NCBI GenBank assembly: GCA_905178155.1
Contig: CAJINV010000001.1
Coordinates: 3,611,706 to 3,675,705 of the forward strand
Source of the DNA: Amoebophrya sp. A120
Taxonomy: Eukaryota > Protista > Dinoflagellata
DNA length: 64,000 bases
Reading direction: 5' to 3'
Numbering within the stretch: position 1 is the first letter of the stretch; every line of letters begins with the position of its first letter. The notes below the pieces were generated by a model. That model searched no databases and was not told the DNA's origin. It saw only the letters and a program-made list of their open reading frames with translations. The translations under genes were made by a program, and so were the position numbers. This document shows positions 1 to 58,400 of the stretch, one piece after another.

Positions 1-520
1 AGAAACCGGGAAAAGAGAAACCGGGAAAAGAGAAACCGAGAAAAGAGAAACCGAGAAAAGAGAAGCCGGAAAAAGACAAACCGGAAAAAGAGCAACCGAG
101 ACCCCCGGTTCTCGGTTTCCGATTCTCGGTTCTCGGTTTCCGATTCTCGGTTCTCGGTTTCCGATTCTCGGTTTCCGATTCTCGGTTTCCGATTCTCGGT
201 TCTCGGTTTCCGATTCTCGGTTGTTTCAGGTTCTCGGTTCTCGGTTTCCAATTCTCGGCTCTCGGTTTCCGATTCTCGGTTTCCGGTTTCCGATTCTCGG
301 TTTCCGATTCTCCGTTTCAGGTTCTCGGTTCTCGGTTTCCAATTCTCGGTTCTCGGTTTGCGATTCTCGGTTCTCGGTTTCCGATTCTCGGTTTCCGATT
401 CTCGGTTCTCGGTTTCCGATTCTCGGTTTCCGATTCTCGGTTCTCGGTTTCCGATTCTCGGTTTCCGATTCTCGGTTTGCGATTCTCGGTTTTTTACGCC
501 CTGGCCAAAGCTTAACTTGA
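1..520. mobile_element. Foldback-like element 1 (left end outside window) with oppositely oriented satellite arms
   Basis: 1-~100 is a 15-bp unit (AGAAACCGRGAAAAG). ~108-490 is the roughly reverse-complementary TTCTCGG/TTTCCGA array. It ends in CCCTGGCCAAAGCTTAACTTGA followed by TA; the same terminus recurs at 2800. Confidence 0.65.
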
Positions 521-551
521 TATATCAAATCACAACTTGAACTTCTTTGAG

Positions 552-823
552 GTCGTCCCGCCGATACAACTGACTCCGACGAGGATTGGGGCGATGCTGG
601 AAACGGTGGCTGGATGACTGCGCTTGACCACGATATGGATGTGCCCGAGAGTCAGGTCTTCACCGGCAGGGCCAACATCGCACAGGATTGGCACGACGAG
701 GATTCCGCGAGCCAGACCGGCGGCGACTTGTCGGACTTTCTCGGGTCGCAAATGGCAAGTGGGATCGGCGGCATGAGCATGGGCGCGCCGCAGAAAGGCA
801 CGGGCAAGAAGGGAAAGAGGTGA
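552..823 (+). CDS. Terminal exon or gene fragment, acidic/Gly-rich with basic tail (...GAPQKGTGKKGKR*)
   Basis: GC-rich frame open from AG|GT at 551/552 (RPADTTDSDEDWGDAGNGGWMTALD...) to TGA at 823. No upstream exon is visible because the foldback element lies there. Confidence 0.4.
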
Positions 824-980
824 AGTCACCGACTGAAGATCATGTAAGTACTTGTTTTCGCTGTACAATATGAATACAATAGACTACTTGTAAAAATGAA
901 ATGCTCGTCTCATCTCAGTCGTCCCACGACCACGAGTGAGCAAGCAATATACGAAATTTCACTTTTCCATTGATTACAAA

Positions 981-1059
981 CGGAGGCCGCGGTCGTGATC
1001 TACCCGGTACTTCTGACGATCGGAGGCTGCGGTTGTGATCTACCCGGTACTTCTGACGA
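981..1059. repeat. 40-bp tandem duplication
   Basis: CGGAGGCYGCGGTYGTGATCTACCCGGTACTTCTGACGA at 981-1019 and 1021-1059. Confidence 0.9.
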
Positions 1060-1370
1060 ACTTGTTCTTTTATTCGATCATCGACATTACACCGTAACTC
1101 GCTTCACTTGTTCGCACCTACCGCGGTCGACAAGCGTGAATCTCCAAGAATGTTTCCGAAAAAAGCGAAAGAGACGCGGGCGAAGTAGAGCCCCACAGGT
1201 GGTACTGTGTGGGCACTTGAGTCTGCTTCTAAGTGTTGGCGTTATTTCAACTGGATGTGAATTCATGTATCTAAAGTCAAAACCGTTATCCTGTATGTAT
1301 AAAACCAAGTGCTGAATGAAGCGCACTATTTGTACTTACGTATTTGTTGCCTGACTATCCCACCAAAAGC

Positions 1371-1439
1371 AATCCACCTATAGTATGCAGCACTGCAACT
1401 GCCTCATGTTGGGTCGTATCAACGTTCGTTGTTCGTGAA
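1371..1439 (+). repeat. 87-bp unit, copy A (3'-truncated)
   Basis: AATCCACCTATAGTATGCAGCACTGCAACTGCCTCATGTTGGGTCGTATCAACGTTCGTTGTTCGTGAA; also seen at 2801, 4680 and 6526. Confidence 0.95.
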
Positions 1440-1633
1440 ACGCGCCGCTGCCGCACCAGCCGCCGCCTGGTCTGGGGTTGGAAGTCGAAATGGTGTTGCG
1501 ACTCGGTGGACCTGTTCCTCGAATTTATGCAGTGCCAATATGTCTGGGTCTGGATCTGGAAAGATACAAGCTTGTCATGCTGTCTTCGGATTCTAAAAAA
1601 ATCTGTATTCAATGCGGAGCAAAACTGAGTAGN

Positions 1634-2800
1634 ACCGAGAAAGAGAATTGTGGGCCGAGGCCCGGAACTTTGCACCAAGAAAGAGAATTGTGAACCGAGA
1701 CCGAGGCGAGACTAGTGCGACCGGGGGCGCGAACGCTTTCTCTTTGATGCTCTTCCCCGCGCGCTGGGGGGGGGCCGCGCTGCCTTCCCCATCGACCTAC
1801 CCGCCGGCGTTTTCGCACTTGAGTGGCGCCGGCGTTTCTTTGCTGGTGTTTTCCCTCTTGAATCGTTGGGGGTGCTTTTTGTTTTCTCGTCGGAGGCTTT
1901 TTCCACGTGCCTCGCGCGGAATTATCTCTGCGCGCGCCCACAGGGCGACGCTGTCGCGCGGTGTTCCTTTGCTCCCCACGCCCCGTGTTCTCTGGTCGGT
2001 GCGGCCGGGGGACCCTACCACTTACGCAACCACAGCCGGCGCAAGCGTCTGCGCATCGGCATTTTCGCACTTGAATGGCGCCGGTGTTTCTTGGCCTTTG
2101 TTTTCGCACTTGAATCTTGGGGGTGTTTCCGTTCTATTGTCTTCAGCGCTGGGTGTGGGCCTTGCCTACTATCAAGCAGGCGCGTTGCCTGCTGCGGCTG
2201 GTTTCACCATCGGCAGAACCACGGCCGCCGCGGGCCGTGGCGCTGACGTTTTCGCACTTGAATGGCGCCGGTGTTTCTTGGCCTTTGTTTTCGCACTTGA
2301 ATGCCCTCGGTTTTTTTTGTTTCCTCACCGCTTCGGCCTGTTCGATCGCCGTCACTCCTACTTTTCTCAGAACCAGTCTGCGCTCGGAAAGGCAGTCGCG
2401 CAAGTGATTTCCAACAGAAAATCGCTTGCATTTTTGCCGTTGAATGGCGCCGGTGTTTTTGGTGTTTTTCTTTCACAACACACCAAAAAAAATTTTTCGG
2501 CCCTGCGGGGCTATCTTTTTTTTGCGGTGTGATTTTCCTCCTGAATGAGAAACGCGCACTCTACGGCGACCCATTCTCGGCTTCGGGTTTTCAGTTCTCG
2601 GTTTTCAATTCTCGGTTCTCGGTTTTCAATTCTCGGTTCTCGGTTCTTGGTTTTCAATTCTCGGTTTCGGGTTTTCAGTTCTCGGTTCTCGGTTTTCAAT
2701 TCTCGGTTCTCGGTTTTCAATTCTCGGCTCTCGGTTCTCGGTTCTCGGTTTTGCGTTGCTCCATTCGGCTCATTTTTACCCTGGCCATGGCTTAACTTGA
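1634..2800. mobile_element. Foldback-like element 2 (left end lost at the N at 1633)
   Basis: Left ACCGAGAAAGAGAATTG units are inverted relative to the right CAATTCTCGGTTCTCGGT array (~2575-2750). An exact internal 54-bp repeat lies at 2062-2115 and 2249-2302. It ends in CCCTGGCCATGGCTTAACTTGA followed by TA. No transposase ORF recognised. Confidence 0.65.
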
Positions 2801-2877
2801 TAGTATGCAGCACTGCAACTGCCTCATGTTGGGTCGTATCAACGTTCGTTGTTCGTGAATCTTGAAAATCATTGGAA
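2801..2877 (+). repeat. 87-bp unit, copy B (5' 10 bp missing, abuts foldback terminus)
   Basis: TAGTATGCAG...TCTTGAAAATCATTGGAA, identical to the other copies except for one mismatch with copy D. Confidence 0.95.
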
Positions 2878-3058
2878 CGAAAAAAATCTGTCCTGTTAAC
2901 GCTAGCAATAGTGCTGGCTTTTGTTGTACTTGTAGATTAAGTCTTCGTTACTCAAGATAAGTCCTCGTGTCCGTCCGTCTTGCTTCTACCGTCTTCTGCG
3001 CGTGCGGACTAACGCTTAATCGTTGCCTGGCGTTTTGGATCCGTCCCGGCCCTGAACC

Positions 3059-4747
3059 ATGGCACCCCAACTCGAAGTTCCGTCGTCCGCCTTTTTTCCG
3101 GGACAGCAACAGATTCCACCGATTAACGATAAGAGCGACGGTGATAACACCGAGGACGAGGACATGGAACAAACGCCCGCGAAGCAATTGTCGGCCGGTA
3201 TTGCGCCGCAGGTGGGGATGCGAATGGTCGGAACGATTGTGCGGGAGATCTACCACAAGGTTAAGGACAAGGATGGCAACGTGATCCGGGTCGGGGACAG
3301 CAAGGGTTACGGATTCATTCGCCCGCATAAGCAACTCAGCCTGGAGAACTTCCTCGGGCACAAAACAGGGGGTCGCTTCACCAACTTTGTCAGTGTGTCG
3401 CCGGATTTTATTGCGGAACTGTCGGAGTTGTCCAAGGAGTTCAAATCCAAGAATGACCTGTTTGTGCACAAGCGGTCCGTCGTTGAGGGCGACTGGGGTG
3501 TGGGCTGTGTGGCCGAATTCACTGTTGCACCGGGCCGGGAGGAGGGCAAGCTTGAGGCGCGCATGGTGCAAATCCTGGCTGTGGATCCCCGCTGCCCGAC
3601 TCTGGACGCGCTAGCGAAGAAGGTTCAGTGGCTCGAGGGGCAGTTAAAGTTGTCCAATAAAAAATCCAACGACGCGGTGGCGACCGCTGAAGCCGCAAAG
3701 GTGACCTCGGCGCAGGCAGCGGCCAAAGTGCAGCAGGTCGAAACCTCCACCAACCAGCGCCTGGGCACGCTCGAAGCCGGGTTACAGGAGTCCGCGCAGG
3801 TGGCGCGTGACACGAAGAGAGACGTGGAGGCGGTGAAAAAGGAGGTTGTTACCCAGCAAGCGACCCTTGCGGAGATCCTGTTGCATGTCAAGCAGAACTC
3901 CGCTGCATCGGCCCAGCCGGCGAAGCGCAATGAGGATGAGGAAGAGGGTATCGCTATTGCTCCTTCGTGCGAACAGTCTTCATCTTCGTGTTCATCTTCT
4001 TCGTCATCTTCATCTTCTTCATCACAGCACTGCCTCAACAACATAAATTTCCACATCTCATCATCACAGGTCATTCCGGCGATGACAAGAGACGCAAGAT
4101 GGCCGGCGCTGGAGCTGCTGAGCCGACAAACCTACAGCAGCCGTGCTGATAAGCAGGTTGCGGCACCACGTCGGCTTTTTGTTGGTGTTGCAGCCGGAGA
4201 TGAGGAGTTTGATGAGAATCTTGATGTGAAGAACAATTTTGAAAACGAGGACTTTGTACAAGAGCAACCTGATGACAAAGAATCGTCGTGCTTGTCTCGC
4301 CGACTGTCGGAATTGTCGGTAGCAGTCCAGTCAGATTTTGTTGAGAGCCCGCAAAACGAAAACCATTCTTCGAACGACAATCCTTCCATCTGTAAAACGA
4401 ACGATCTGAACCAGCATGCAACTGCTGCATGTGATGAAAGGGCCTCGGCAGCAGGTCCGTCGCACACCAGGCAGTTGGTGTCTCATGCGTTCAACGCTCT
4501 GTGTTCCTTTGGTCGTCGTGACTCTGTTGTCGCAGGGTCGGACACCTCTCCAAAAACACCTGATCGACGATGGCCCGAGAAGACTGCCGTCCCCGCAGTT
4601 AACGAGGCACAGTACGACCCCTTTGTGACGCCGCCCCCGCGCACAAGGACTATTTGGGACCCAGGCATCAGAACAGCCGAATCCACCTATAGTATGCAGC
4701 ACTGCAACTGCCTCATGTTGGGTCGTATCAACGTTCGTTGTTCGTGA
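3059..4747 (+). CDS. Cold-shock-domain protein with coiled coil and low-complexity tail
   Basis: RNP1 KGYGFI and RNP2 DLFVH, followed by EFTVAPGREEGKLEARMV. An unusually long insert (~45 aa) separates RNP1 and RNP2. A heptad-like region follows. Intronless; the stop codon lies inside repeat copy C. Confidence 0.75.
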   Translation: MAPQLEVPSSAFFPGQQQIPPINDKSDGDNTEDEDMEQTPAKQLSAGIAPQVGMRMVGTIVREIYHKVKDKDGNVIRVGDSKGYGFIRPHKQLSLENFLGHKTGGRFTNFVSVSPDFIAELSELSKEFKSKNDLFVHKRSVVEGDWGVGCVAEFTVAPGREEGKLEARMVQILAVDPRCPTLDALAKKVQWLEGQLKLSNKKSNDAVATAEAAKVTSAQAAAKVQQVETSTNQRLGTLEAGLQESAQVARDTKRDVEAVKKEVVTQQATLAEILLHVKQNSAASAQPAKRNEDEEEGIAIAPSCEQSSSSCSSSSSSSSSSSQHCLNNINFHISSSQVIPAMTRDARWPALELLSRQTYSSRADKQVAAPRRLFVGVAAGDEEFDENLDVKNNFENEDFVQEQPDDKESSCLSRRLSELSVAVQSDFVESPQNENHSSNDNPSICKTNDLNQHATAACDERASAAGPSHTRQLVSHAFNALCSFGRRDSVVAGSDTSPKTPDRRWPEKTAVPAVNEAQYDPFVTPPPRTRTIWDPGIRTAESTYSMQHCNCLMLGRINVRCS

Positions 4748-4756
4748 ATCTTGAAA
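4680..4756 (+). repeat. 87-bp unit, copy C (3'-truncated, followed by re-copied AACGTTCGTTGTTCG fragments)
   Basis: AATCCACCTA...TCTTGAAA; extra 15-mer copies at ~4755 and ~4775. Confidence 0.95.
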
Positions 4757-6525
4757 CGTTCGTTGTTCGTGTTCAACGTTCGTTGTTCGCACCAAGTACC
4801 TCAGTCAGCCGAGAATCAAACAGCTAAGCTATCGACTATATCTGATAAAAAAGCCCAGCAGTGTGCCGCAATTTCTCAATTTCTACAAAGAGGTAGGAGA
4901 CATCTACCCGGGCGTACTACCAAGTGGTGTGCGATCCGCCATACAGTGCCACCCGGTGACCGAAAAACAAGAAGCAACACCATACGAACCGGAAAAACTC
5001 CGCTCAGCGGTGAGCGCTGCGCTCATCGAGAAGCTCGCGCCTTGGGTGCGAGAAGTGTAGAAAAACCGATGGTAGGATGGAAAACGGGTGTTGAGGTGAT
5101 GAAAGGCCTCAAACTGGCTACAGACCGTGACAAGAAAAGGAGTCCTTGCACAGAGAGAGCACAACGCCGAAACCTGCACCGAAAACCACCGAAATCCAGA
5201 AGGCTGTGCTACCGCGCTGGAAGTCTAGTGTGGAGGTGAAGGGCGAATGCGAGCGGGCAAAGCATCCAAGGGCGAGGGGTGTTAGGGCGGGCGGACCGGA
5301 ACCTTTCCCGAGGCGCAGCGCACGCAAGCACCAGCTCAACACTAACATGCGAAAACCGACGGACGGCGGCCGAGCTGGAGGAGAAGTAGGTGGAAAAGGA
5401 GCAAGTGCAGCGATGCGAAAATAAAAATATTTTAGTCTAGCGGTCTCATCCTCACTACAAATAAAAAAACGTCACTCCCTCAGGAGCGAAGTTGCCGACA
5501 CGGAAAAAGCTAACATGATAAAGTGCCTGAAAATACACCTTGTGGCAGGCGGAACAGCAACACCGAGACAGAAGGAAGATACGATAGCAACTAGAACAAC
5601 TAGAGAGAGAGGGCGCGGGGAGTGTTCTGTACTGGTGACATCTTCTCATCTTCATCCCGCACGCGCGGCCGGGCCCTTGGCCATACATCCCCATCTGCGG
5701 GCACCTTGGGCGCAAGAACGATCACAACAGGTCACGCCCGCGTCTAGGTCAAGAAAACCAACCGAAGCGAAAGGCAAACGAGATGAGGAAAGATATTTAT
5801 CTGGACCCCAAGCTGCTGAGATGTCGATAGATCCTGATATTGATTTTCTCAGATAGAGACTCCTGATGTATCCCCATCTTTTCTCGATTCAAGGTGCAAA
5901 TCCATACATATTAGAATTCCCCGCGAACCAGTGCAGCCGCTCAGTGGAAGAATCTCAGATTTTTGAAGGCGCAGCTAAAGTTCGCGTCTTGCATTCGTAG
6001 ACGCGGACTTTGTAGAACCAGACGAAGATCCGGCCAGAACCACCCGAGAGAGGGTGGTAGCATGGCAAATATGTTACCACCTTGAAGAGCCTGATCGAGA
6101 CAAAAACGGGAGGTGAGCTCTGCCGCAAGCTGCTCCAGGGCGGAGGCAGCGCAAAGTCTACAGAGTTAAGGGACAAGCACCTAGCATATATGGTGCCCGA
6201 TATGACCCTAAACTCGCCCAAGCCCCGGACCGTCCCAGAGTAGACAGCCGCACCACAGAGGGTAAGCTTGTGAGCAGACGGAGCGCACCCGGCCGCGGCT
6301 CGAAGAGAAGAAGCTGCAACAGTGTACCTCAGTGCCCGCAACTCGAAGAGTGGTAGTTGCATCATGGCGCGTCTGGTACAAGGAACAGGAGTGAATGCTG
6401 GCCGAGTAGGTGTTTCTCCTGAGAGCGGTGCCTCCCTGCTCGTTTCCTCCGGGTGGTCTGCGACATCATGTTCCACTTGATAGCACTATGTATAGCTAAA
6501 AACAGGTGTGAAGGATCCTCCTCCT
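4757..6525 (+). mobile_element. Decayed 1.77-kb insert flanked by a 46-bp direct repeat; possible non-LTR retroelement remnant
   Basis: Duplication at 4711-4756 and 6526-6571, (TCC)n at the 3' end, and broken coding-like frames. Only weak resemblance to a restriction-like endonuclease (HGKYV...VPDMTL...AAARREE). Confidence 0.4.
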
Positions 6526-6581
6526 CCTCATGTTGGGTCGTATCAACGTTCGTGGTTCGTGAATCTTGAAAATCATTGGAA
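6526..6581 (+). repeat. 87-bp unit, copy D (5'-truncated, 1 mismatch)
   Basis: CCTCATGTTGGGTCGTATCAACGTTCGTGGTTCGTGAATCTTGAAAATCATTGGAA. Confidence 0.95.
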
Positions 6582-6907
6582 TTCGAAATGCAAAGAGAGC
6601 TAGAGCTTAGAAGAGATAATTGCTGGAGCGAAATTGTTGTGACAGAGAGATTTCGCAACGACCCGTGGGGAGCACAGAGTGATTCTTGAGTGAGTTAGAG
6701 CGGTGAGGAGCGATTGTAGATGACGGCTCAGTGTGGTAATTTCGTAAAACACGCTCGTAATTCATTGGGTCTGGGCGGACCTTATCAATCGTAATTCATC
6801 GGAGAAGGGGAATTTGAAAGTCGCTGTCGTATTAGTCGTATAAAAATCTTTCAGCTTCGTCGCAGGAAATCAAGTTCCCAACATCAACAGAAAATCATGA
6901 ATGAAAT

Positions 6908-9643
6908 ATGGTCTCTCCTAGTCCTAGCACGGGATTTTTTTCGTATTGCACAGTAGGTCCACTTTGAGATCAGTAAGGAGAGCCGGCATTACGTGTCGTG
7001 GGCCAAGAAGTATACGTAATTCATTGTGTCCCGGTAACAAAGTATGTCCGCGTGGCAGTGGTTGCCGTCGTCAGCACGGTGGCTTGGGACCGGTTGAACG
7101 ACCGTTCTGCTTGTCCTCAGTTCAGATCCGAGACACAGCAGGGACAGTAGTGCGAGAGCGCGAATCGCCAACAGCAACGCTCCGTCCCCTTCAGACTGCT
7201 GCGAGTGGGGTCAAGAAGCGCGAGCTCGACGCGTTTGAGGAAACAGTGTTAGAAGATACCCTTTCCAGTATATTTACCGCTTACCTCAAAGAACTCTGCC
7301 CAAGATGTTGGAGTTCAAGCCACGCACGCACTCCGATCCGGACTTGCCGCAGCTTCTGCCGCTGCCGGTCCGGCCCCACTCGTCCTACCAGGCAAAGCTG
7401 CAGTTCAAAGATCAAGCCCAGTTCGAAGAAAAGGTGGTGCATGCTATGTCCCAGAAGCTTGGAATCGACCTAATCAAGGTATGGACATTTTGATGTTTCC
7501 GTATGGTGAAAGCGTACCGCCACAGGATTTCTCTATGCAAAGTGAAATAGTTTGTTTTTGTTAGCTCCTCGCCCGAAGTTAACGAAATCGAAAATGAAAT
7601 TCCACTGTATCTATCAATATCAAATAACAGGACAACGAGTTACGATGGGTGGTTCGCGATTGCCTGCTCGGGTTGAAAGACGAGGGATGGACGTGCCAAC
7701 TGAAGGGAATGAACGACCTCGCATACCTCCACACGGCCACCGAAGAGTCCCGCTCCTTTCATCCCGTCGTCGAGATGCATCGACAACTCGGCGAACGATT
7801 AATACTGCACAAAACCCACCTGGGCGGGAAGAAAACGGACAGGTTTTACAGAATACAGCAGGCCGTGTACGAGGCAATAATGGGAGAAAGGGACGTGCGA
7901 GGGGTACAACCAAGAAACTTTTTTTTGACTCTACTAACTCCGTGCGGATAATGCGACGAAATCGAACTCTCATGTCATGCAGCGACCGGTAGCACTGGTA
8001 TAAAATAAAAACTAAAAAATGAAAACACGCAGGTAACAAATCCGAATTTGATGGAGGACGTAATTCAGTGCTTGGGAATAGACGTGCAGGATGAGCCGTA
8101 CCTGATCCGGCGCGTGAAAAACGCAATCGAAGATTCCTACTTTCGCATGAAGCACGAAGGCGCACGGTTCATTACGGTGGAAAACGTCATAAACGTCCAA
8201 ACGCTAATCGTGCACCTCGAGTTAGATCGGGTCAAGTTTCTCAGAAAAATATCGCCCTCGGGTCTACTCTACTGCATCGAATGCGAAACAGCACTGGCCG
8301 ACGTATTGAACACGCTTTTTTCTGCTTTATCGACGCGTTTACATTTTCTAAATTCACAATATAAGGAGGGTGATCATGATTCAGTTGATTCGGAAAAATA
8401 GAGGCGAATAGTGACGACCCACAAGAAGCATCTGCATCTTCTTTGTCAGAGATAGTTTTCTTGACACGGCTTTTCCGGCTTCAATGGAAAACAGGTAGCG
8501 TGCGCCGCGTGCCACGACGTCTTCTGCAATAACTGTATGGTCGCCACGCATAGTACCGGGCACCGAATGGACCATCCAGCAGTTTTCATCGAGCAGTGCG
8601 TTTGCAGCGAGTGCGAACAGCGGGCAGCATTAGTCAGGTGTCAGGACTGCGTAGACCTGTTCTGCTACGACTGCTTCAAAAATACACACCGGTACGGAAA
8701 GCGCGGAAAGCACTGCGTCAGAATACCCTACACAACTTTCTGCTACGAGTGCGACGAAAAAGAAGCACAGTACTTGTTTTCAAATTTTTGCTGATATTCA
8801 AATGCTCTTGCTCATCAAGCGAGCATACGTACATCATTTCCGTTTTCATTCTTGGCGTGATGGTGTTGGTGGTCAGTTTCTTTCGTTGTTTTCCCACGGA
8901 CGAAACACAACTACGACGGAATAAATAGGTACATCTGCATGGAGTGCGAAGACATGCTGTGCTTGTCGTGCAACACGAAGATGCACAGCAAGGGTGCCCG
9001 ACAGAACCATTCCCTCTACGGCTTGCGAAAAGCGGCGTACTCAAAGAAGTTGTTTGCGAACAATCTTGACCGCGTGATGATGATCGTGCAGAAAGACAGG
9101 GATATGGCGTTACCACTCAGCCCATGGTTTATCTTCTACGACGAGGCAAAAGCGCCATACTGGTATACAATGCGTTTTCAGTAGTTGGAAGTGCAGTTGC
9201 TTGTTTTTGTTCAACGAAGTCCACCTCCTGTATTGCATTTGCAAATCGAGATCCGTGTCTATATCTTGAATACCACGGTTGCTGCAGCTGTGATGGGTCA
9301 TATGTTGCGATCAGTTTCAGCCATCACCAAATTATAACGCAGGTACAATTTTCAAACGAGAGAGCGGGTTCGCGCAAACCCGTCAAACCTGGTGGACCCA
9401 CCGGAGAAGGCGGATCCGGCCGCGGCCTCGGCAGACCAGCAGGCCGACATGAAGCTCCCCGGCGCGACCGACTTGCTCTCGACGCACTCGGCGATCAAGG
9501 CGTCCGAGGGCGCCATCTTCGACGTGCCACCGCCCCTGCACATCAAGTTCGCGTCGCCCTCCGTGGTGCAGCCGACGAAATTTCAGAACACGGCTGTCGA
9601 AGAATTCAAGGGCGAGATCCAGAGGAGCATGGGTGGGCTGTAG
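6908..9643 (+). CDS. Multi-B-box zinc-finger protein with a WW-like motif (spliced)
   Basis: In-frame GT-AG introns at 7016-7252, 7479-7630, 7904-8032, 8303-8494, 8770-8928 and 9163-9342. Three CxxC-x7-CxxC-x4-CxxC-x3-H-x7-H units, then WFIFYDEAKAPYWYNFQTRE. The start is tentative (assumes an intron at 6911-6956). Confidence 0.8.
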
Positions 9644-15894: not shown

Positions 15895-16471
15895 ATGTCG
15901 GGTAGGAACGAGAGTCGGGAGCGGCGGCGGATCCCGGACAACCACAAAGAGCCATGTGCTGTTTGCGGCGAGCCGATGAAGGCCGTCAACGCGGAGGAAG
16001 CAGGGCTTATGACGAGGGCAAACCAGATTCTGATCGGGGTGCTGCGACACTACTCCATGCTCTACTACGGGACAAAAGATGTCACGGACTTGAGCGCAGG
16101 TATGTTGAGCTGCATTAAGCTACGTTTATTTCTCCTCTCTACTTAGGCGGATAAGCAGCACTAAAACAGCATTAATTGTTTCGAATACAATTTTTCATTC
16201 GACTTGCCCTCTCCCAAAAAAACACACAGTTGCCGTCGAGATGCGATCGAATACCTCATCCCTTGACGACGCCGAGAGACAAGAGTTTATGGATTACGTA
16301 GATTCCGACGACGGCAAGGAGGGTTGGAAGGCCCCGCTGGCGCAGGAGGGTTACCGATTCCGTAACGTAGCCGTAATCTTCGTAATTTCCGTCCTGTTCG
16401 TCGGTGGCTTGTGGGCCATCTTAGATTTTTCAGGCGTCATTCCGGACAGGTCCACGCAGGCTGCCAGATAA
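15895..16471 (+). CDS. Small CxxC single-pass membrane protein, paralog 1
   Basis: CAVCGEPMKA...ILIGVLRHYS; intron 16100-16229; YVDSDDGKEGWK followed by a hydrophobic helix. Clearly paralogous to the gene at 17807. Confidence 0.8.
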
Positions 16472-17806: not shown

Positions 17807-18803
17807 ATGGAGATGACTCAGGCGGCGTCTTCGAGCTCCGCCCCGCCGGGCGGAAACTGGCTCGAAACTGCCCCTACAGAGTCGACTTCGCACGACTGTG
17901 CCGTATGCGGGGAGCCCATGAAAGCGCGCAACGCTGAGGAACGACACCTGATGCAGAGGACCAACGAGATCATGATCGGCATCCTGAGATACTACTCGCA
18001 CATGTACTTCGGCGTGGGAGATGTCACCAATCTCAAGGCGGAAATGGAGGGAGGTACTATTTCTAATTCTAGTAGAACAGCAATATGTTGGTGACCTGTT
18101 AGTTTGCAAGATGTTCATGCACAAGATCCGGCTTGTTGCCTACAAACTCACTGTAAAATGAATAAGATCAAGAAGATGCAATCCGAACTAAAAATCAGTC
18201 GAGATCGAGATGGACACCGGGGTGGATGATTACATGGATGAGCAGCGGGAACAGTTCCTCGAGTACGTAGATTCCGACGACGGTCAGGAGGGGTGGAAAC
18301 CACCCTTGCAACGAAGCCTTTGGAGCTACCACACTGTGGCGGGCGTGATGGTCACGGTCATTCTCGTCATCGGCATCACCTGGATCCTGCTGGACGTACT
18401 ATCCCTTTATTGCAATTTTGGATTTTCAATTTTTTCAAGTACTGATCAAAGAAACAAATGGCACAACTCTTACTTAAATCTGTTGTTCTCGGACGGCGGT
18501 AGTTTGTGTGTTTTGTGTCAAAAACAGCTTTTTGAGTTCGCTCCTAAGTATGGTCGTCACTTTGCAAAGCATCAACATGCGCAACATTCTCGATATTTGA
18601 ACAACATCATGCGCCTCGAGAATAAAAAACAGGCGTTCGGAGTGGCAGCGCGCGGGAAGACAGCGAATATCAATAAACTATCCGTGAACGGTGCACCCGA
18701 TATGAAAGCCGGATTTCATCAAAGCAAGGCCACGGCTTTCATCATGGTTCGGGAGCTGCCGACAGATGAACCCCTACCTGTCTTCGTTCAGCCCGAGATT
18801 TGA
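17807..18803 (+). CDS. Small CxxC single-pass membrane protein, paralog 2
   Basis: CAVCGEPMKA...IMIGILRYYS; introns ~18053-18198 and ~18396-18632; YVDSDDGQEGWK followed by a TM helix. Confidence 0.8.
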
Positions 18804-26554: not shown

Positions 26555-29500
26555 ATGGACAGCGACGACGAGCTGCTCCAGTCTCTGCTGGACAAGCATG
26601 ACACCAAACCGTCGAGCAACAAGCGCCCGCCCGGAAATCTGTATGCCAAAGGGAGTGCGCCACCACCACCGCAGAGCGGCCACTCGGCGAACAAATTCCA
26701 CAGTTTCGACGACCTCGACGGCATTCAGATTCGACTCCCGCCCGCGGGATTCGAATCCCGTGGTAGAAGTACAGCTGCCACTCACGCACCGCCTGACGAT
26801 GGGATAGGGATTCAGATTCGAGCGATCTCGACAACGACGGCTGGAGGTCCGAAAAGCCATCACCGGCAAAGGGAGAGCGGCTTCGACCGAGGTGCGGGTG
26901 GTGCAAGAATAGCAGCAGCTCCACCAGAACCACCCGCGCCGCCGCCACCACCTCCGCCGCCCGGGACGTCGTCGTCCGCGCACCACAGCACCGGGTCCCG
27001 GTCGACGCGTGGTGGGCAGCATAATGGACTACATCAGCACGGTAGTAGTTCTTCGCATAACGGTGGTGGACCGGTGCCGCCCCCGCCACCGCCCAAGGAT
27101 CCAAACACGAGCTGTCTGAACCCCAAGTGCCCCCATCAGACCACAGGTCGGTATCCCGAGATCTCCCGCTTTTCCCGCTTTTGCCAGGACTGTCGCTTCT
27201 ATTCGGGCGACCCATTCAAGCCGGCGGCGAAAATTCTGGGCGTGCACATGTGCAACCGGTCGGTGAAGCAGGCGAATTTCGAAGTCCCGGTGTACCCACA
27301 TTCCTACCGCAAGGAGGACATCGTGCGCACGGCAATGGCGGTACCCGGGGCCGGGAATCGGGTCCAAAACTACCTGCAGCTTGGGCCTCTGGGACAGGCG
27401 GAAAGGCCGATCGAGCTGAGAAATCTCGCCGACAACCCGAACCACTACAAGGACGAACTGTCGCACAGATGGCGCGAGTCGGGGGTTTCCGTGTACGTGT
27501 CCGCGCCGCCCAGTGTTGGCGAGCAGCGGGTTTTGAAAATCGACGCTTGCCACGGGGAGGACACGCTGACAAAAGATGACAATGTGCCGCTAAACTTGAC
27601 GCAGTTCCTGAACGAGGCAGCCCGGACGTACGTGATGTACGGGCAACCGTTTTCGTTGAAAGTCAGGGTGGTCTTTAACTTACGCGCCAAGGAAGACGAC
27701 TGCAGGCTGGGGTTGCTCGAGATGAGTCCGCCCATCCTGCCCGAGACGATTTTCGCGAAGATCACTCGTATTTTTAGAAAATTTTTTTTCACATCATTTT
27801 GGATTTGTCATGTTGTTGTTTGCCTCGAATCTTTTGGTTCTCTCATGTCTGTACTCTGCTCTTCCTATTGAAGATTCCTTTTCCTGCTCGTGAGAAGAAG
27901 TATAAAGTTTTGAATTCTCGATCCAAGAACGCCACTGTACTACAGAGCGCAACGTGGTGCCTTCCGCCGAGGACAAGGTGCGTGTGATCACATGGGTGGA
28001 AGAGCACCTGCCGGAAGACAACAGCGACGAGGACGAGATCCAGCTGCTGGACCCGCCGGAAATGTCGCTGACCTGCCCCATGAGCATGGAGCGGATCAAA
28101 ATCGCCGCCCGGGGGAAGATATGGAATGCAAAAATGTCTGGGTCTGGAAGAATTCGAACTTGTGATGCGCATCTCAGAACACAGAAAAATCTGTCATGCA
28201 TAGTTAGCAAAAGTTGCCCGCTTGTTTCTGTCACCAAAACGGGGGATTTGTCATGCGGATTCGGCATTGCGGAAGCTTCTCGAAACCTGTGATGCTAGAG
28301 CTTCCATTTCAGACCTTCTGCGTCATGCAAAAACAGCATGAGTCTTCCAGAGTCAGACATTTTTACATTTGATAGAAGAACTGCACGCACCTGCAGTCCT
28401 GGGACCTGGCGACCTTCATCGAAACTAGCAAGCTCGCCCCGCCGAAGCGCCGGTGGGTCTGCCCGATCTGCGACGTGGTTTGTTTACCGGATCGGGTGGT
28501 GCTCGACAGCTTCACGCAGAAAGTGTTGAAAACCGCCGCGGCGAATGTCGAGTCCGTTTTAATCTCCACCACGGGCGAGTACACTGCCTCGAAGCTCGAG
28601 GACGACGACAGCGGTTTCTCTTCGGACGACTTCAACCCGAACAGTTTAAAAGCGAGAATAGCCGCGACGACCGGACAGAAAAAGAACAACAATATTAAAG
28701 CGCAAGCCGGTTCTTCGCAGTTGGAGCAACGGCGGGAAAAGGACCGCCTGAAGCGGCAGGAGAGAGAAGCGGCGGCGGAGAGGGAACGGAAGAAGAAGGA
28801 CTGGGAGAAGCTGCAGTTCGCCCGGTTCGGCTGGATGGAGGTGGGGGAAAACTGCGACTACTGCGGCAAAGCCGTGCAGTTTCACGGCGGGATCGTGTGC
28901 GGACGAGCGGTCAAGAAGAAACAGGATAACCGCGGGTGCGGGAAAAAAATCTGCTGGAAGTGTTTTCGCAACGAGAGGGATCCCTGCAAAACGACCAAGC
29001 AGGAATTTGAGGAATACGGGGCTGCGGCTTGGTGGATGCACGATAAGTGCATGAATGACAGCGACAGAGCAGCGTATCTATTTAGATGGTGTTTTTTTTC
29101 GCATTTTTGTGTGTGTCTTGAACTTCAAGAAAGATCAAAATGTTGAATCCTAGTATACCGATGCTAAAGAAAGGCCCGATTCCAGCACCGCAGCCTCTCT
29201 AGGCTGCATTGTCACATGGATCGGTGTCTGATACAAGCGTCGAAAAGCAAACCCGTCGGAATCAGATGCGCATCCCTTTTCTGAGAAGATATTCACTGGG
29301 AAGCCACAGACGGCGGAACAATTTCTCCAATGGCAGATCTTCTACTTGTGCGAAAGTAACAGAAACTGAAACGTATTCAAACTACTTAGAAAGACAAAAG
29401 CAAATATGGCCGCATGCACATTTATGTACTTCCATCCATTTGCAGAAATAGAAAATTTTCTTTACTCAGAACACAAAAAAACTATACAGATACTATGGTG

Positions 29501-43328: not shown

Positions 43329-45182
43329 ATGCTTCTACTCGCGCGCTTCGCCAGCATACTCCTGTCTGTCGGGTATCTGGCGTTGCAGACCCTCATTGTT
43401 CCGAATGCGTCGACGTACGGAGGACCCAATGGGCGTTCGAGACCAGCATTACTCCGGCGCCGATTGGAACGGAAAGCCGAGTTGTCCTCATCTTCATCTT
43501 CGTCCTTTTCCGACAAGGAACATACGCCGCCCTTCGTTCCCCGCACGCACCCGGTCGTCGATCCGGTCGGAGAGCTGTGCGTTCTCATTCTGGCGTGCAA
43601 CCGCGCCGAAGAGCTGGCGGCGTCGCTGGCCTCTTGGAGCAAAGTGTTCGGTGTCGCGAGGGTCCGGAAGTTTCTTTCTCTGGACTGCGTGAACAACAGT
43701 ACTGGAGGCGTGGACAGTGTCGCGAGAGAGTGGAAGAGGCACCAGGTCGAGGGTAGAAAAGCCAGAAACCAGGAGCCGGATCACAACGTTTTCTTGCGCG
43801 GGTCCGTGCACCGGGCGGCCAGGGAGAAGTTTTACCCGGAGTTTTCGGGTGAGCGCATAACGCACCACTGGCTATCTGCGTTGAACAACTTGTTTTCGCT
43901 GGAAGAGACGCCCTGCGACCACGTCTTGTACGCGGAGGAGGACCACTTAGTCGCGCCCAGTATCCTCTTTGACGCGCAGCAGCTTCTCACGTTTCAAAAC
44001 CAATTGAACTACTGTCCTATCCCCGGGAAAGAAAAATGTGTCGTAAGAATGCAGATGTTCGAAGATAGAAAAACAAAGAAACCTGCTAAAATTGGTCATG
44101 CTGAAATATTTAATGAGATTACTGTTACTCAGAAGAGTTGCGTGGACGACCGGCGTGCCGAGTAAAAGATTCTGTGAGTTTCACCACCTGCTGTCTCCGC
44201 CACGTTTTTCGTCGCGATACCTCCCGACTGTTTCACCGTGCAGCTTGGCTGCCACCGCGACTGTCGGGGCGGGCGGTCGGAGAAAGAATCCTTGAAGCTG
44301 GGTGTGCTGGAGAGCGGGAACATGGGAGTGATTTACTCGAAACGGTTGTGGCAGGGGCAGTTCATGCAGCCAGAGTCGTTACAAGCGTATTGCAACCGCC
44401 GGGGCGACTGGGACATAAATCTACTTCAACACGGCATCCGAGGGTTCATCGGGCGCTCGTCGCTCACACTGCTCCAGCCACGGATTCAGCACCTGGACAC
44501 GACCCGATCCAGCCGCTTGCGAAAAGACTTCGGGGCGATAGACGAGGAGCGTAGCGGAGAGGAAAAGTTTCATAATGCGGATATTAGTGCTAGTGCTGAT
44601 GGACGACGAATCTCTACTACTACATCAAAGATGTTGCAGCTACCGTCTTATGCAAGCACGATGACGAACCTCCTCCCGCAGTTAGCAGCCATGGAAGAAG
44701 CACTGAAAGCCCACGGCCTGGACATTCGCACGCTCCCGGACCGCGACCTCGTGCGGCAATACGCCAGACAGTATGAGGAAATGCGAGCAAAATCGCCCAA
44801 TTTGTTTCGCGTGCCCAGCTGGTGGGCTCGGGAAATGGGAGAAATTCCCTTGCGAGAAGGAGCGGACCGCGAAGGTGACACAGTTTTGTTGAGAAACCAA
44901 CGCGCGCTCCAAGTAGAGGCTGTGGATGCAAATAAAGCTGCTGCGACGAGCGGAGAGGTTCTTGCATCACCGGTGCACTCAGAGCCGTCACACCTTTCGA
45001 AATTGCTCCCCGCAGAAGTGGAAAACGGTAGAATTATGTCACAGCCAATTTCACGATCAATGGGCAGCACCACCGAAATTCTTGCCATTGCGCCCGAAGG
45101 GACGACCATGACGAGTGCGGCTAGTACCCCTCGATCAGAAACCGACAAAGATCCACTGTTAACGCAAACGAGCCCGGCCTAA
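43329..45182 (+). CDS. MGAT2/GnT-II-like (GT16) N-acetylglucosaminyltransferase, type II membrane
   Basis: N-terminal TM; ACNRAEEL, THHW, YAEEDHLVAP, CP|DCFTVQLG, GNMGV, GDWDINL and PRIQH appear in the order of recalled MGAT2 motifs (HNR, KHHW, EEDH, CPECxxxxLG, HNMG, NWDWTL, PRIFH). Confidence 0.8.
44018..44224 (+). mobile_element. Non-canonical intron / introner-like TIR element in the MGAT2-like gene
   Basis: Starts TATC; GATA then CCTCC at the end (left flank TGTCC). Imperfect TIR: GAAAAATGTGTCGTAAGA versus reverse complement GAAAAACGTGGCGGAGA. Contains in-frame stops; removal gives CPDCFTVQLG. Confidence 0.7.
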
Positions 45183-46036
45183 AAATGCATTAAAAACAAC
45201 TTCAAACTGATTTCAAACATTTTGAAAATCGAAGAAGTCCTGCCTTGATTTTCGGGAAAAGCGGGTCGCAAGGTGGCAGAGGAGTGCTTTTAGCTTCATT
45301 TGGTTCAACATGGGGGATGCATTCTTGCCACTACAAGTGTCTGCTTCTTTGGAGGGCGCGCGGTTCTCTTACTCAAAAAAAGGAAAGACGAAAACCCTTG
45401 CGCTCTTTACAAATCTGTTTCCAGCTTTGCATGTGGCCCGCCGCACTTGTGCGCTGACGACTTGGGCCATTTATAGACGCGCCCCGGCGCCAAGTAGGGC
45501 AAGGCTAGCTACATGGAAGCAGACAAATCAATGATGGGCGCCGCGTTATTAATGCGGTTCATTTTCTCCATGCTTAGCCATGAGGGCGAGCGCCGCTCCG
45601 TCCAGGGTGGCCGAGTAGGCGACAGCACGGCCAAGGCACAGCAGAGGCTTGCTTTCATCTCCTGCGCCATATAAATGCGCGCCAGCTTTTGGCGTGAGGC
45701 GGACCGCCGAGGGAGGAGGGGCAAGTAGTGTCTTGCGAACGTCCAAGCCAGCTCCCCCTGGCTTCTGCGCTTGGTCTTAATGTTGCTGCTGCTGCAAGCG
45801 GAAAGCGCAGTCGGAGAAGCCTAATCTTGCGACCCTCCGCCCCTCCAAAGGCGCAAGAGGCGGCGCGCCTGTTGGCTGCCATTGGGGCGCCGAGCGAGCG
45901 CAGGCGGCGGCGGTTGCTCTTTCTAGCAGCCGAAGACCCGCACTGCGAAAGCAGGCAGTCCAGATCAGTCCGGAGGGGAGACCATGACGAGTGCGGCTAG
46001 TACCCCTCGATCAGAAACCGACAAAGATCCACTGTT
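45104..46036. repeat. Exact 57-bp direct repeat (45104-45160, 45980-46036) flanking an 819-bp insert
   Basis: GACCATGACGAGTGCGGCTAGTACCCCTCGATCAGAAACCGACAAAGATCCACTGTT occurs twice. Confidence 0.95.
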
Positions 46037-55489: not shown

Positions 55490-58400
55490 ATGCTCGTTTA
55501 CAGCACGGCCAGCTCGTCTTCTTCCTCCGGGACCCCGGGTGCGGGATCTCGCGGGGCGTTCGGGGTCCTCGAGAGTAATCTGCCTTCCAACGGAACATCA
55601 GCAAGCGGGTTGCGGGAAGCGGCTCGGCTGGCCGATGTGCTGAAGGAGAAGGATCTGGAGATTGCGAGGCTGGAAGCGAAGTTAGCAAGACAGGACCGCG
55701 CGCTGCAGGCGTTGCGCCAACAGCAACTCGAGTCCGAACTGTACGCCGCCGCGCGGGAGGTGGTTCTGCAGAGCAACTCGACCTCCAGTTTCGGCGACAG
55801 CACGAAGCAGGCCGCGGAACAATCCTCCTCAACAGCGAGCCTCAGTTCCCTCGACCGGTCACTCGCGCCCGCAGCCGAGCGGACCAGAACGCAGGCGAGG
55901 ATCCGGCAAGAACAGCTGCTGAAAAGCAAGGTGGCCAACGCCGCCCTGGCCGCGAACGCCGGAGGTGCGAAGCTGCCCGCGCGGGTGCAGTGTGAGCGCT
56001 TCCGCACGGGTGCGTGCGTTTCAAACGAAGTTTTTCGGCCGCCCGAGGGGCAGACGCTGCAGACGCGGTCGCAAGAGTACCTGGGGCTGGTGGACCTGGG
56101 CGCGCCCCAACCGGTTTTTTTCTCCGAGGTAAGGAAAGAAAGCCAGGTGATCGATCCAGAAGATCGGTTGTCCGATGAAAAGAAGAGCACCAAAAGCGAG
56201 AGCGGTAATAGTACTACGACTAGAGCTGACATCAAAAATGCGGCTTCTCCGCCTGCTGCCGAGGGGCAAGAAGAACGGGCGACGCTCCATCCTCGCAAAA
56301 CAGGACGTGGCAGTACACTGCGCTCGAGCGTGCAGGAGCGAGAGGATGCGAGTGCGACAACAGAGGTTCCAGCAGGAGCACCTTCGATTCGAACAAGCGG
56401 TAGTATTTCCTCCGCCTCCGCGTCCGGAAAAACCACTCTCACCGAGCCAGCGCGAGAGGATGTACAGAGCTACCCGTCACAATTGAGTCTGTTAGTCGAC
56501 CTTCATTCACGATTTCGCTGTCTAATGCACCAAAACGCGCTGTCGCGAGAGGGCGCCACGCAAGCAATCGAAGCGGCTGAAAATGCCGCTGCTGTAGACG
56601 GAGATGACATGAAAGAGCGAAGAAATACAGATGCGCCTTCGCCGAGTGCGCAGCAGGTGGCTAGTAGTACACTGGAAGGACAAAAAGAGCAGGACGACAT
56701 GATGAAACCGAAACCGAAAACCCTTTCCAGTCCTGCTGGAGCGAACGTTCGCAAAAATTCTTCGCCACTGAAAAATCCGGCATTGCGTGCGAGTGAAGAC
56801 AAGGGCTCACGGGAGGCTTTTGAGTGGCTGAAGCGCGAATACGTCAGTAGCCACTTCCGTGTGAAACTGCAGCCCCACCTATCAAAAGCAAAAATCCCCC
56901 CTCCCCATATCGAAAAGGTATGTTCCCGAGAATTTGTGTTGCTGATTTGAGGTCGCAAATCGCCTTTGTATTGCAAGAGAGCAAGGGCAGAAGCTTCCGC
57001 CCCACTATGGAAGCGATTTGTCATGCTTTTGGCCCTAAAAGTGACCCGCTTGCCATGCTGAACAACTAGACCCATACGCCCCTACCGAGCCTGGGGATCT
57101 GGCCGCAGTGCCTCTGTGCAATACAAGGCTGATTTGTGGTCACAAATCAGCATCACAAATTTCTGTTTTGATATGGGGAGGGGGGGTTTTTCATTTCGAT
57201 GCCACCCCTACTTCTCACATTTCCAGCGCGCGAAAAAGACTGTCACGCTTGATCCGCAAATATGCCAGAAAAAAACTATGTGAGTGTAAGTTTGTGATGC
57301 AGAAAGTGCAAAACTGTATACACTTGTCATGATGGATCTGCGTCATAGGCTACTTTCATAGGTGTTTCCATGTACTAGCTGCGCATGACAGGTTTTCCCT
57401 GTAATGCAAAGCGAATTTGTGATGCTGCTCTTCCTACGAACCTACACTTACACAGTTTTTTTCCTGGATAGCAAATCAAGGCCGAGATGCAGCGGTTGGG
57501 GACCGGTTTGTGCGCCCTCCAGCTTGACGAGCAGCAGATGAACGGAGGCGATTCTTCAGAAAGGCACACGGTAAGAAACGATAGCAAAGCACAACCTTCA
57601 TCTGAGGAGCCCGCGTCCAAGGCGCCAATGATTCCAGGCCGCTTCTCGTTTTTCGTTTCTTCAAGCCCGTTCCATGATGCGGAGAAAACTACGGCCGCGC
57701 AAGAAGAACACTCAGGTGCAGTGACTGGGCAGCAGAGCATGTCGGGAAGAAAAAAAACCATCTCCGTGGCACCGAAACCATTTTTGCACTTGCTCGAGCC
57801 TCCAAACCCAAGGACGCCAGAAAAAGAAGGCACAAGAAGCCGAGCTTTTCGACCACGAGATGTTGAAACGGATGTGCCCGCGACTGACGCCCAAGACGGA
57901 AGAACCGATAGCGCAACACAAGCAAGCTCTACGAGAGCGACAGACACACCTTCGTATGGGCAGGGAGATGCCAGAAGCAGCGGGAAAAATAGGTCTAGCT
58001 TTTCGAATTCATCCATCGGGCTGTGGCGACAAGCCGAGGAACTTCTCGCGGACGAGCTTCGATTTTTGGTTCGTGAGTGCCCGTGCTCGGAAAACTACAA
58101 TGTTCCCCCCGCGGACGTCTTAGAAACGCTAGACACCGCTGTCACCTTTCTGGCCGCGATCCTGGAGCTCCCTCCAGAGTTTCTCAACGATACTTCTAGC
58201 AGGCAAACGGGTTATTTTCAGGAGGAAAAGATTGATTGCCAGCGGAACAAAAACCATACTGCAAAGAACCTGCTTTCCGAACAATCTGACGGGGTATTTT
58301 TACTAGACGAGCTTTTGGAGGACGTGGAGCCCGGCATTTCAGATTTCGTCGCTTCCGCAGAAGATGGAGACCGTTTTCCCTTTCTGCAACCGACGCCGGA

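What the first reader, a model, noticed from the sequence alone, without database searches (positions are those of the whole stretch)
1371..6581. Nested insertion hotspot: an 87-bp target repeatedly duplicated around unrelated inserts
Seen: four partial copies of one unit (A 1371-1439, B 2801-2877, C 4680-4756, D 6526-6581). A+B and C+D each rebuild a full 87-bp unit, overlapping by 59 and 46 bp, and the two rebuilt units flank the cold-shock segment (2878-4679). Inference: an ancestral single unit upstream of the B-box gene received serial insertions, each duplicating 46-87 bp of target. Established: most transposons make 2-20-bp TSDs, while TSDs of tens of bp are known from site-specific CRE/SLACS-type retrotransposons that target small conserved genes. 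The unit matches no ncRNA I recognise, so both target and inserting machinery may be undescribed. The A+B pairing is weakened by the N at 1633.
Basis: partly seen in the sequence, partly recalled or inferred. Interest (0 to 1): 0.8.

Follow-up and report, generated by a model that had tools for sequence, protein, structure and literature searches.

The report
Stacked inserts with long target duplications
In what is likely the marine parasite Amoebophrya, one 87-base spot between two genes occurs four times, separated by unrelated 1-2 kb pieces of DNA, likely because breaks at that spot were repeatedly patched with DNA copied from elsewhere, a recurring but still enzyme-less way for this genome to gain sequence.

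Summary
The four partial copies are real. A short-read assembly of run X1 recovers the four outer joints and shows only about 3-4 copies of the unit, so it is neither a dispersed terminal repeat nor a multicopy RNA gene. Rfam and folding find nothing on it. It lies in a ~450-bp spacer between two genes. Breakpoints differ at every insert (left joints at unit positions 69, 77, 87), so CRE/SLACS-type fixed-site targeting is not supported. The A+B '59 bp' is not one insertion: an ordinary TAT...ATA introner end defines B, and the N is a gap. The ORF-bearing insert has one diverged paralog with 4- and 2-nt microhomology at its ends; one joint holds two short re-copies of the target. A separate 57-bp-flanked insert lies at 45.1 kb. 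Best reading: insertion with long target duplication by break repair with template switching (0.45); LINE-driven long duplications (0.3). All four left joints carry AACG. The scan reported similar stacks, with other repeats, elsewhere in this genome (unchecked notes).

The parts
1..522 (.). Foldback-like TIR element with subterminal repeat arrays, right end ...CTTAACTTGATA; lies in an intron of the upstream gene (context; same family end as 1634-2802)
   Evidence: spliced RNA-like contig starts at 552 behind an AG
552..1363 (+). Last exon and 3' UTR of the upstream host gene; ends 7 bases before copy A
   Evidence: X3 contig covers 552-1363 with other (upstream-exon-like) letters before 552; stop codon at 821-823; X3 being RNA is the tool's guess, supported by the missing intron
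1371..1439 (+). Copy A, unit positions 1-69, with the ancestral left flank
   Evidence: both flanks seen as loose ends in X1
1440..1525 (.). Start of insert E2 (rest lost in the gap); holds a 15-mer at 1478-1492 that matches 6576-6590 (unit end plus right flank) at 14 of 15
   Evidence: 0 of 3000 shuffles and 0 of 652 real window segments score as high (noticed post hoc)
1526..1632 (+). Left part of a very high-copy TAT-type introner nested in E2
   Evidence: starts TAT; similar to the complete introner 28120-28374 with 5-bp repeat GAAGA; summed depth ~18,000 against ~28-35 in unique flanks; RNA-like contig enters at 1526 with another flank
1633..1633 (.). N: assembly gap of unknown length
   Evidence: only N of the window; X1 contig continues differently behind 1632
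1634..2802 (.). E3: TIR/foldback element of the same family as 1-522; right end ATA at 2800-2802 followed by unit positions 13-17, likely its 5-bp target repeat; left end in the gap
   Evidence: TAT-start grammar of A120 introners from PMC7789003 section 11
2803..2877 (+). Copy B, unit positions 13-87 (identity reaches back to position 10 through the element's terminal ATA)
2878..4679 (+). Insert E4 (1802 bp): 181-bp leader plus an ORF (3059-4747, 562 aa) that has no stop inside the insert and ends in copy C; coiled coil, weak nucleic-acid-binding-like N-part; one diverged paralog elsewhere
   Evidence: paralog contigs 87-95% alike, homology from 2874 to 4681, paralog contig runs on ~4.4 kb; 13 of 20 differences in the 5' part synonymous against 23% expected
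4680..4756 (+). Copy C, unit positions 1-77
4757..4789 (+). Two short re-copies of the target at the joint: 4757-4771 = unit 53-67, 4773-4789 = unit 49-65
4790..6525 (+). Insert E5 (1736 bp): decayed multicopy repeat, copy depth rising to its right end, ending in (TCC)n that overlaps the target's CCTC; LINE-like 3' end by shape only
   Evidence: depth ~95, ~42, 305, 446, 624 from left to right; an X3 contig leaves at 6529 into another flank; no Pfam family in six frames, no homologs
6526..6581 (+). Copy D, unit positions 32-87 (one substitution at 6554), with the ancestral right flank
   Evidence: one 21.6-kb X1 contig runs from 6500 through D without other letters
6935..9184 (+). 5' part of the downstream B-box gene (spliced, GT..AG intron 7477-7628)
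   Evidence: X3 contig 6935-7906; ANCHR-like B-box E 1.7e-09 at 8537-8791
45104..46036 (+). Second, independent site: exact 57-bp direct repeat (45104-45160, 45980-46036) around an 819-bp insert inside coding sequence; insert begins AACG

Best explanation
This is a stack of insertions with long, variable target duplications at one intergenic site, likely made by host break repair that copies ectopic DNA by template switching rather than by one site-specific element. Shown: four copies of a locus-specific 87-bp stretch separate unrelated inserts; duplications are 83-87 bp (E4), 41-46 bp (E5) and at least 57 bp (E2); every breakpoint differs; joints that can be read carry 2-5 nt of microhomology; one joint holds two 15-17-nt re-copies of the target. 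Inferred mechanism: the site breaks with nicks tens of bases apart (or a polymerase stalls near unit positions 69-87); the free 3' end pairs by a few bases with a foreign template, copies 1-2 kb, lets go, and re-pairs upstream on the other end, so the stretch between is synthesized twice. This happened three times here, serially or as one iterated event (A, B and C are identical, D has one change, so all are young). Ordinary TAT...ATA introners later landed in insert E2 and in copy B. The source of the break is not identified; a mobile-element nuclease is likely but untested.
For: Different breakpoints and unrelated inserts (no insert resembles another). E4 has no tail or terminal repeat, begins with a leader and is cut in mid-ORF, and its paralog shares GGAA with the unit end and AA with the unit start, then runs on. 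Re-copies of unit 53-67 and 49-65 at the C joint look like aborted rounds of the same back-jump. A second site in the window has a different 57-bp repeat and a tail-less insert with no TIR-like word longer than 6. Precedents: paired nicks 43-50 bp apart give near full-length duplications in mouse cells (PMC8355091, passages); cycles of templated insertions re-replicate the host segment (PMC7025897, passages); bacterial insertion with long target duplication without mobility genes (PMC2853133, passages).
Against: E5 has the shape of a LINE 3' end (depth gradient, (TCC)n end pairing with the target, another flank in X3), which fits target-primed reverse transcription as well. E4's only visible paralog is 5-13% diverged while B and C are 68 of 68 identical (probability 1e-4 to 0.03 if equally old), so the true donor is not seen in X1; DNA-templated repair needs a lost, polymorphic or foreign donor. 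AACG at all four left joints (15 of 2,000,000 random quadruples share a 4-mer; 479 of 1,000,000 triples; window chosen post hoc) suggests a sequence-selective enzyme that generic repair does not predict. No repair gene of this organism was examined; PMC7789003 has none of six repair/meiosis terms.
Confidence: 0.45

Rival explanations
1. A non-site-specific LINE (Dualen/R9-like behaviour) nicks the two strands 40-90 bp apart; E5 is a truncated copy primed through its (TCC)n end, and E4, E2 and the 45-kb insert are RNAs reverse-transcribed in trans or internally primed pieces of other elements.
For: E5 depth rises to its right end and another copy has another flank right after (TCC)n; tail/target overlap CCTC(A); 4-nt microhomology at E4's left joint fits second-strand priming; Dualen makes >50-bp variable duplications and R9 126 bp (PMC9977147); Amoebophrya has non-LTR elements (PMC7789003, PMC12130899, passages). 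A donor RNA from a master copy would explain E4's purifying selection and missing identical donor.
Against: No RT, APE or RLE domain in any insert; E4 and the 45-kb insert have no tail, and E4 is the 5' part of an ORF, the reverse of 5' truncation; three hits in 87 bp are unlikely at random (rough 0.006 for two later hits).
Confidence: 0.3
2. Meiotic double cuts (Spo11-type) at a promoter hotspot give duplications and capture fragments from other sites or from a diverged partner haplotype.
For: Site lies in a short spacer just upstream of a gene; double cuts yield tandem duplications and ectopic inserts with short microhomology in mouse (10.1101/2020.06.23.168138, passages); a diverged partner would explain E4's non-identical donor.
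Against: Inserts there were 15-349 bp, here 0.8-1.8 kb; nothing here shows meiosis or Spo11 (no such term in PMC7789003); one site is inside coding sequence.
Confidence: 0.08
3. The junctions are real but the order is an assembly mosaic of alleles or loci joined through the shared unit.
For: Gap at 1633 between A and B; X1 contigs cannot phase across 46-69 shared bases.
Against: Unique flanks and E4 have similar depth (16-35 per path) and only one left and one right outer flank appear; the contig through D shows no branch to an empty allele.
Confidence: 0.06
4. One reading: the unit is a conserved small-RNA gene targeted by a CRE/SLACS-type site-specific retrotransposon.
For: Duplications of tens of bases; the unit sits between two transcription units, where a small gene could lie.
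Against: No fixed position; about 3-4 copies in X1; none of 6 Rfam matches at E<=5 in 1-8000 touches the unit; folding z -0.28 to +1.77 in 4 of 4 folds; no tRNA; different repeat at 45.1 kb.
Confidence: 0.05
5. The unit is the terminal repeat of an element (LTR, split direct repeat, pseudo-LTR) whose internal part is E4.
For: Two near-complete units flank E4.
Against: E4's paralog has other flanks and lacks the unit; unit not dispersed; no TG...CA ends and no short duplication outside A and D.
Confidence: 0.03

Closest known systems
[quoted passage not shown]
   Same: Unique >30-bp target duplicated around an insert with no mobility gene; length varies; enzyme unknown.
   Different: Here eukaryotic, cargo is repeat debris and an ORF fragment rather than restriction-modification genes, stacked three deep at one site; no empty-site genome available to confirm.
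Dualen-4b_cRei LINE of Chlamydomonas and R9 of rotifers (PMC9977147; passages read; R9 seen only as cited there)
   Same: Duplications >50 bp of variable length flanking an insert, no fixed site for Dualen.
   Different: There the insert is the LINE itself; here only one of four inserts looks like a LINE end and no RT/APE/RLE was found.
Cycles of templated insertions in cancer genomes (PMC7025897; passages read) and duplications at paired nicks (PMC8355091; passages)
   Same: Copied distant segments with re-replication of a host segment; microhomology; short templated re-copies.
   Different: Those are somatic, mostly kb-scale, donors identical; here heritable, duplication under 100 bp, return to the host site between every insert, donor diverged or missing.
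CRE/SLACS/CZAR retrotransposons (PMC12278014, PMC3636483; passages)
   Same: Target duplications flank the insert.
   Different: They insert at one fixed position in multicopy SL RNA genes and encode RT plus RLE; none of this is met.
Amoebophrya A120 introner elements (PMC7789003 section 11 and passages; PMC12130899 passages)
   Same: The elements at 1526 and 1634-2802 have TAT...ATA ends like them.
   Different: Their direct repeats are 3-5 nt; they explain B's left edge, not the 41-87-bp duplications.

Membership tests
CRE/SLACS site-specific non-LTR elements | Insertion at one fixed position of the target | tested here: not met
   Left joints at unit 69, 77, 87; right joints at 1-3, <=13, 32-36
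CRE/SLACS site-specific non-LTR elements | Target is a multicopy conserved small-RNA (SL) gene | tested here: not met
   Depth 42-105 against 24-35 per single path, loose ends shown are the window's own flanks (8 of 15 shown); no Rfam match
CRE/SLACS site-specific non-LTR elements | Insert encodes RT and restriction-like endonuclease | tested here: inconclusive
   No Pfam family in six read-through frames of E5, no homologs; decay could hide them
Dualen/R9-like LINE with long TSD | Variable duplications of tens to hundreds of bases | tested here: met
   41-46, >=57, 83-87 and 57 bp
Dualen/R9-like LINE with long TSD | Insert is a 5'-truncated element with a constant 3' end | tested here: inconclusive
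   Fits E5 (depth gradient, second flank); not E4 or the 45-kb insert
Dualen/R9-like LINE with long TSD | RT with APE and/or RLE in an autonomous copy | not testable with these tools
   No genome held
Insertion with long target duplication (ILTD) | Duplicated stretch >30 bp, unique in the genome, insert without mobility genes | tested here: met
Insertion with long target duplication (ILTD) | Empty single-copy site in a relative | not testable with these tools
   No relative's genome; no empty allele visible in X1 (contig through D unbranched); 0 hits in metagenome contigs
Cycles of templated insertions | Inserted segments copied from other genomic loci, host segment re-replicated | tested here: inconclusive
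   E4 and E5 have relatives elsewhere, but no identical donor was seen
Cycles of templated insertions | All joints arise in one event | not testable with these tools
   Copies differ by 0-1 base, compatible with one event or close succession
LTR / terminal repeat of an element | Dispersed copies that travel with the internal sequence, TG...CA ends, short TSD | tested here: not met
   E4 paralog lacks the unit; ends and flanks
A120-type introner (elements at 1526 and 1634-2802) | TAT...ATA inverted ends with 5-bp direct repeat | tested here: inconclusive
   One end of each is visible and fits; partner ends lie in the gap; a complete relative of the 1526 element at 28120-28374 has both ends and a 5-bp repeat

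The most novel reading that the evidence does not exclude
Amoebophrya runs an undescribed capture process that is independent of the cargo: an enzyme that selects AACG at the upstream joint opens a site, unrelated 1-2 kb pieces (including genes from diverged alleles or copies) are written in, 40-90 bp of the site is duplicated each time, and the same site is reused, building repeat-spacer stacks across the genome without any fixed target.
Probability: 0.2. Interest if true: 0.75.

Novelty: new variant of a known kind. Interest (0 to 1): 0.45.

Why it matters
Long target duplications around enzyme-less cargo are described but mechanistically open in bacteria and rare in eukaryotes. A compact eukaryotic genome in which they recur, stack at one site and capture selected ORF fragments would give many natural junctions from which the mechanism (LINE machinery, repair polymerase or meiotic cutting) can be read, and would be a route to new exons and gene fragments. 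The AACG joint motif is a concrete, cheap test. I found no description for Amoebophrya in the library (supplements of PMC7789003 and PMC12130899 were not read and may bear on this).

Tried and rejected
No whole genome is held, so no genome-wide BLAST or empty-site search. Exact 24-mers of the unit and of E5's end: 0 hits in metagenome contigs. No RNA holder listed on record; raw RNA runs X8 and X9 laid 0 reads, so no test; RNA-like contigs X3 and X4 do not cover E4 or the unit apart from a low-complexity patch, which is no evidence either way. E4 protein: no homolog among 309-984-aa candidates, not in the collection by identity, one spurious bacterial repeat protein at E 2e-4 among 1.84 billion representatives, no Atlas hit, model pLDDT <50 over the N-part and no fold match, best PDB sequence match an RRM at E 0.15: cold-shock identity unproven. 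E5 looked copia-like or REL-like by eye (recalled motifs): not supported; a codon test on 24 differences favoured no frame convincingly (best 11 of 24 synonymous, six frames tried). Replitron: variable duplications there but short, and terminal direct repeats are absent here (10.1101/2022.12.15.520654, passages). The 49-bp 84% repeat at 16281/18250 is a pair of paralogous genes, not a target duplication. Bacterial promoter scan not informative. Scan look-ups by sequence, near this place and with AACG returned nothing.
Full report
Observation. In unit positions, A (1371-1439) is 1-69, C (4680-4756) is 1-77, B matches from position 10 (2800) to 87 (2877), and D (6526-6581) is 32-87 with one substitution at position 60. 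No genome is held, so I used public runs. Contigs of run X1 carry the left and right flank of A and both flanks of D as loose ends on the unit, a contig from 4456 to 4709 crosses the E4/C joint without differences, and a 21.6-kb contig starts at 6500 and passes D unbranched (8 of 15 loose ends and 9 of 33 pieces shown). Summed depth in the bins that hold the unit is 42-105, against 24-35 for single paths, which fits three or four copies; the tool warns that such depth is no copy number, so this is rough. X1 may be the source of the window and cannot phase across the shared stretches, so block order is not independently proven.

Setting. A spliced, RNA-like contig of run X3 ends at 1363 and another starts at 6935 with a GT..AG intron; the downstream gene has B-box domains. 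Without inserts the spacer would be about 447 bp. The unit has no Rfam match among 6 matches at E<=5 in 1-8000, folds no better than shuffles in 4 of 4 folds, and is no tRNA. The organism is likely Amoebrophya-like (Amoebophrya): this rests on recalled gene style, on TAT...ATA introners with 5-bp repeats in the window (2 complete ones; grammar in PMC7789003 section 11) and on the scan's unchecked notes.

The A-B interval is composite. After A come 86 bases of an unknown insert E2, then at 1526 a very high-copy introner (depth about 18,000; relative at 28120-28374), then a gap (an X1 contig continues differently behind 1632), then E3, a foldback-like element whose right end is the same as that of the element at 1-522. 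Its terminal ATA is followed by unit positions 13-17, the expected 5-bp repeat. So B's left edge is an ordinary introner-type insertion, and the duplication around E2 is at least 57 bp. A 15-mer in E2 (1478-1492) matches the unit's end plus right flank at 14 of 15 (0 of 3000 shuffles, 0 of 652 real segments; post hoc); it is unexplained.

E4 (2878-4679). It holds a leader and an ORF without a stop of its own. A coiled coil is supported; the cold-shock label is not; no homolog was found. X1 holds one paralog: 15 substitutions and 27 gap letters in 287, 53 in 416, 24 in 226. Its likeness begins at 2874, sharing GGAA with the end of B, ends at 4681, sharing AA with the start of C, and its contig runs on for about 4.4 kb; it lacks the unit. 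Of 36 differences inside the ORF (from 40 of 112 shown; one upstream and three in E5 left out), 13 of 20 in the 5' part are synonymous against 23% expected (p 8e-5) and 5 of 16 in the 3' part. B and C are 68 of 68 identical, so the insertion is younger than the split from the paralog and the real donor is not seen.

E5 (4790-6525). Its left joint holds two re-copies of the target, unit 53-67 and 49-65. Depth rises from about 95 and 42 to 305, 446 and 624 toward the right end, which is (TCC)n overlapping the target's CCTC; an X3 contig leaves at 6529 into another flank. So the family inserts elsewhere and has the shape of a LINE 3' end, but no domain or homolog was found and no frame stood out.

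A second site. At 45104-45160 and 45980-46036 an exact 57-bp repeat flanks an 819-bp insert inside coding sequence, unrelated to the other inserts and without tail or inverted ends. All four left joints in the window read AACG across or at the joint; 15 of 2,000,000 random quadruples and 479 of 1,000,000 triples share a 4-mer, but the window around the joint was chosen after seeing the motif and one joint is a re-copy of the target. The scan's notes report stacks or single inserts with other 34-76-bp repeats in five other windows of this genome; I could not check them.

Mechanism. Shown: variable long duplications, unrelated cargo, microhomology, re-copies. Inferred: widely staggered nicks or a stall near unit 69-87, a 3' end that copies a foreign template and returns upstream, three times. 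Paired nicks give near full-length duplications (PMC8355091, passages), cycles of templated insertions re-replicate the host segment (PMC7025897, passages), and insertion with long target duplication is known in bacteria without an enzyme (PMC2853133, passages). I give this 0.45. A LINE with long duplications acting in cis and trans (Dualen precedent, PMC9977147, passages) gets 0.3: it fits E5 and the missing donor, not the tail-less, mid-ORF E4. Meiotic double cuts 0.08, mosaic assembly 0.06, CRE/SLACS on a small RNA 0.05 (fixed position required, PMC12278014), terminal repeat 0.03. Two later hits both falling in unit copies has a rough chance of 0.006, so either the site is reused or the events were coupled.

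Verdict. Real and odd, but the target is ordinary spacer DNA and the class has precedents; the enzyme is unknown. I found no account for Amoebophrya in two searches of the library (PMC7789003 read as passages and section 11, PMC12130899 as passages, no supplements). New variant of a known kind; interest 0.45, lowered from 0.8 because the small-RNA target and site-specificity fail, held up by recurrence and the AACG lead.

Noticed in passing
window 45104-46036: Exact 57-bp direct repeat around an 819-bp insert inside a gene; insert and insert-plus-one-copy are both multiples of 3, the left frame stops 22 bases into the insert, and the 10 bases before the two copies agree at 7 of 10. May be spliced out, leaving an extra 19-residue repeat.
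   Followed up: partly
window 1439, 2877, 4756, 45160: AACG at or across every left joint of a long-duplication insert.
   Followed up: partly
window 1478-1492 vs 6576-6590: 15-mer inside insert E2 matches the unit's end and right flank at 14 of 15.
   Followed up: partly
window 28120-28374 and 57261-57470: Two complete TAT...ATA introners with 5-bp direct repeats.
   Followed up: partly
window 1-522: Foldback-like element with inverted arrays of short subterminal repeats in the last intron of the upstream gene; acceptor reads GAG rather than YAG at 549-551.
   Followed up: no
window 16216-16470 and 18192-18803: Two neighbouring paralogous small membrane-protein genes (shared YVDSDDG motif).
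   Followed up: partly
window 976-1055: Two-copy 40-bp tandem repeat (90%) in the upstream gene's 3' UTR.
   Followed up: no
window 5958-6476 (minus strand): 173-codon open frame inside insert E5 with no homolog; differences between copies do not favour it as coding.
   Followed up: partly
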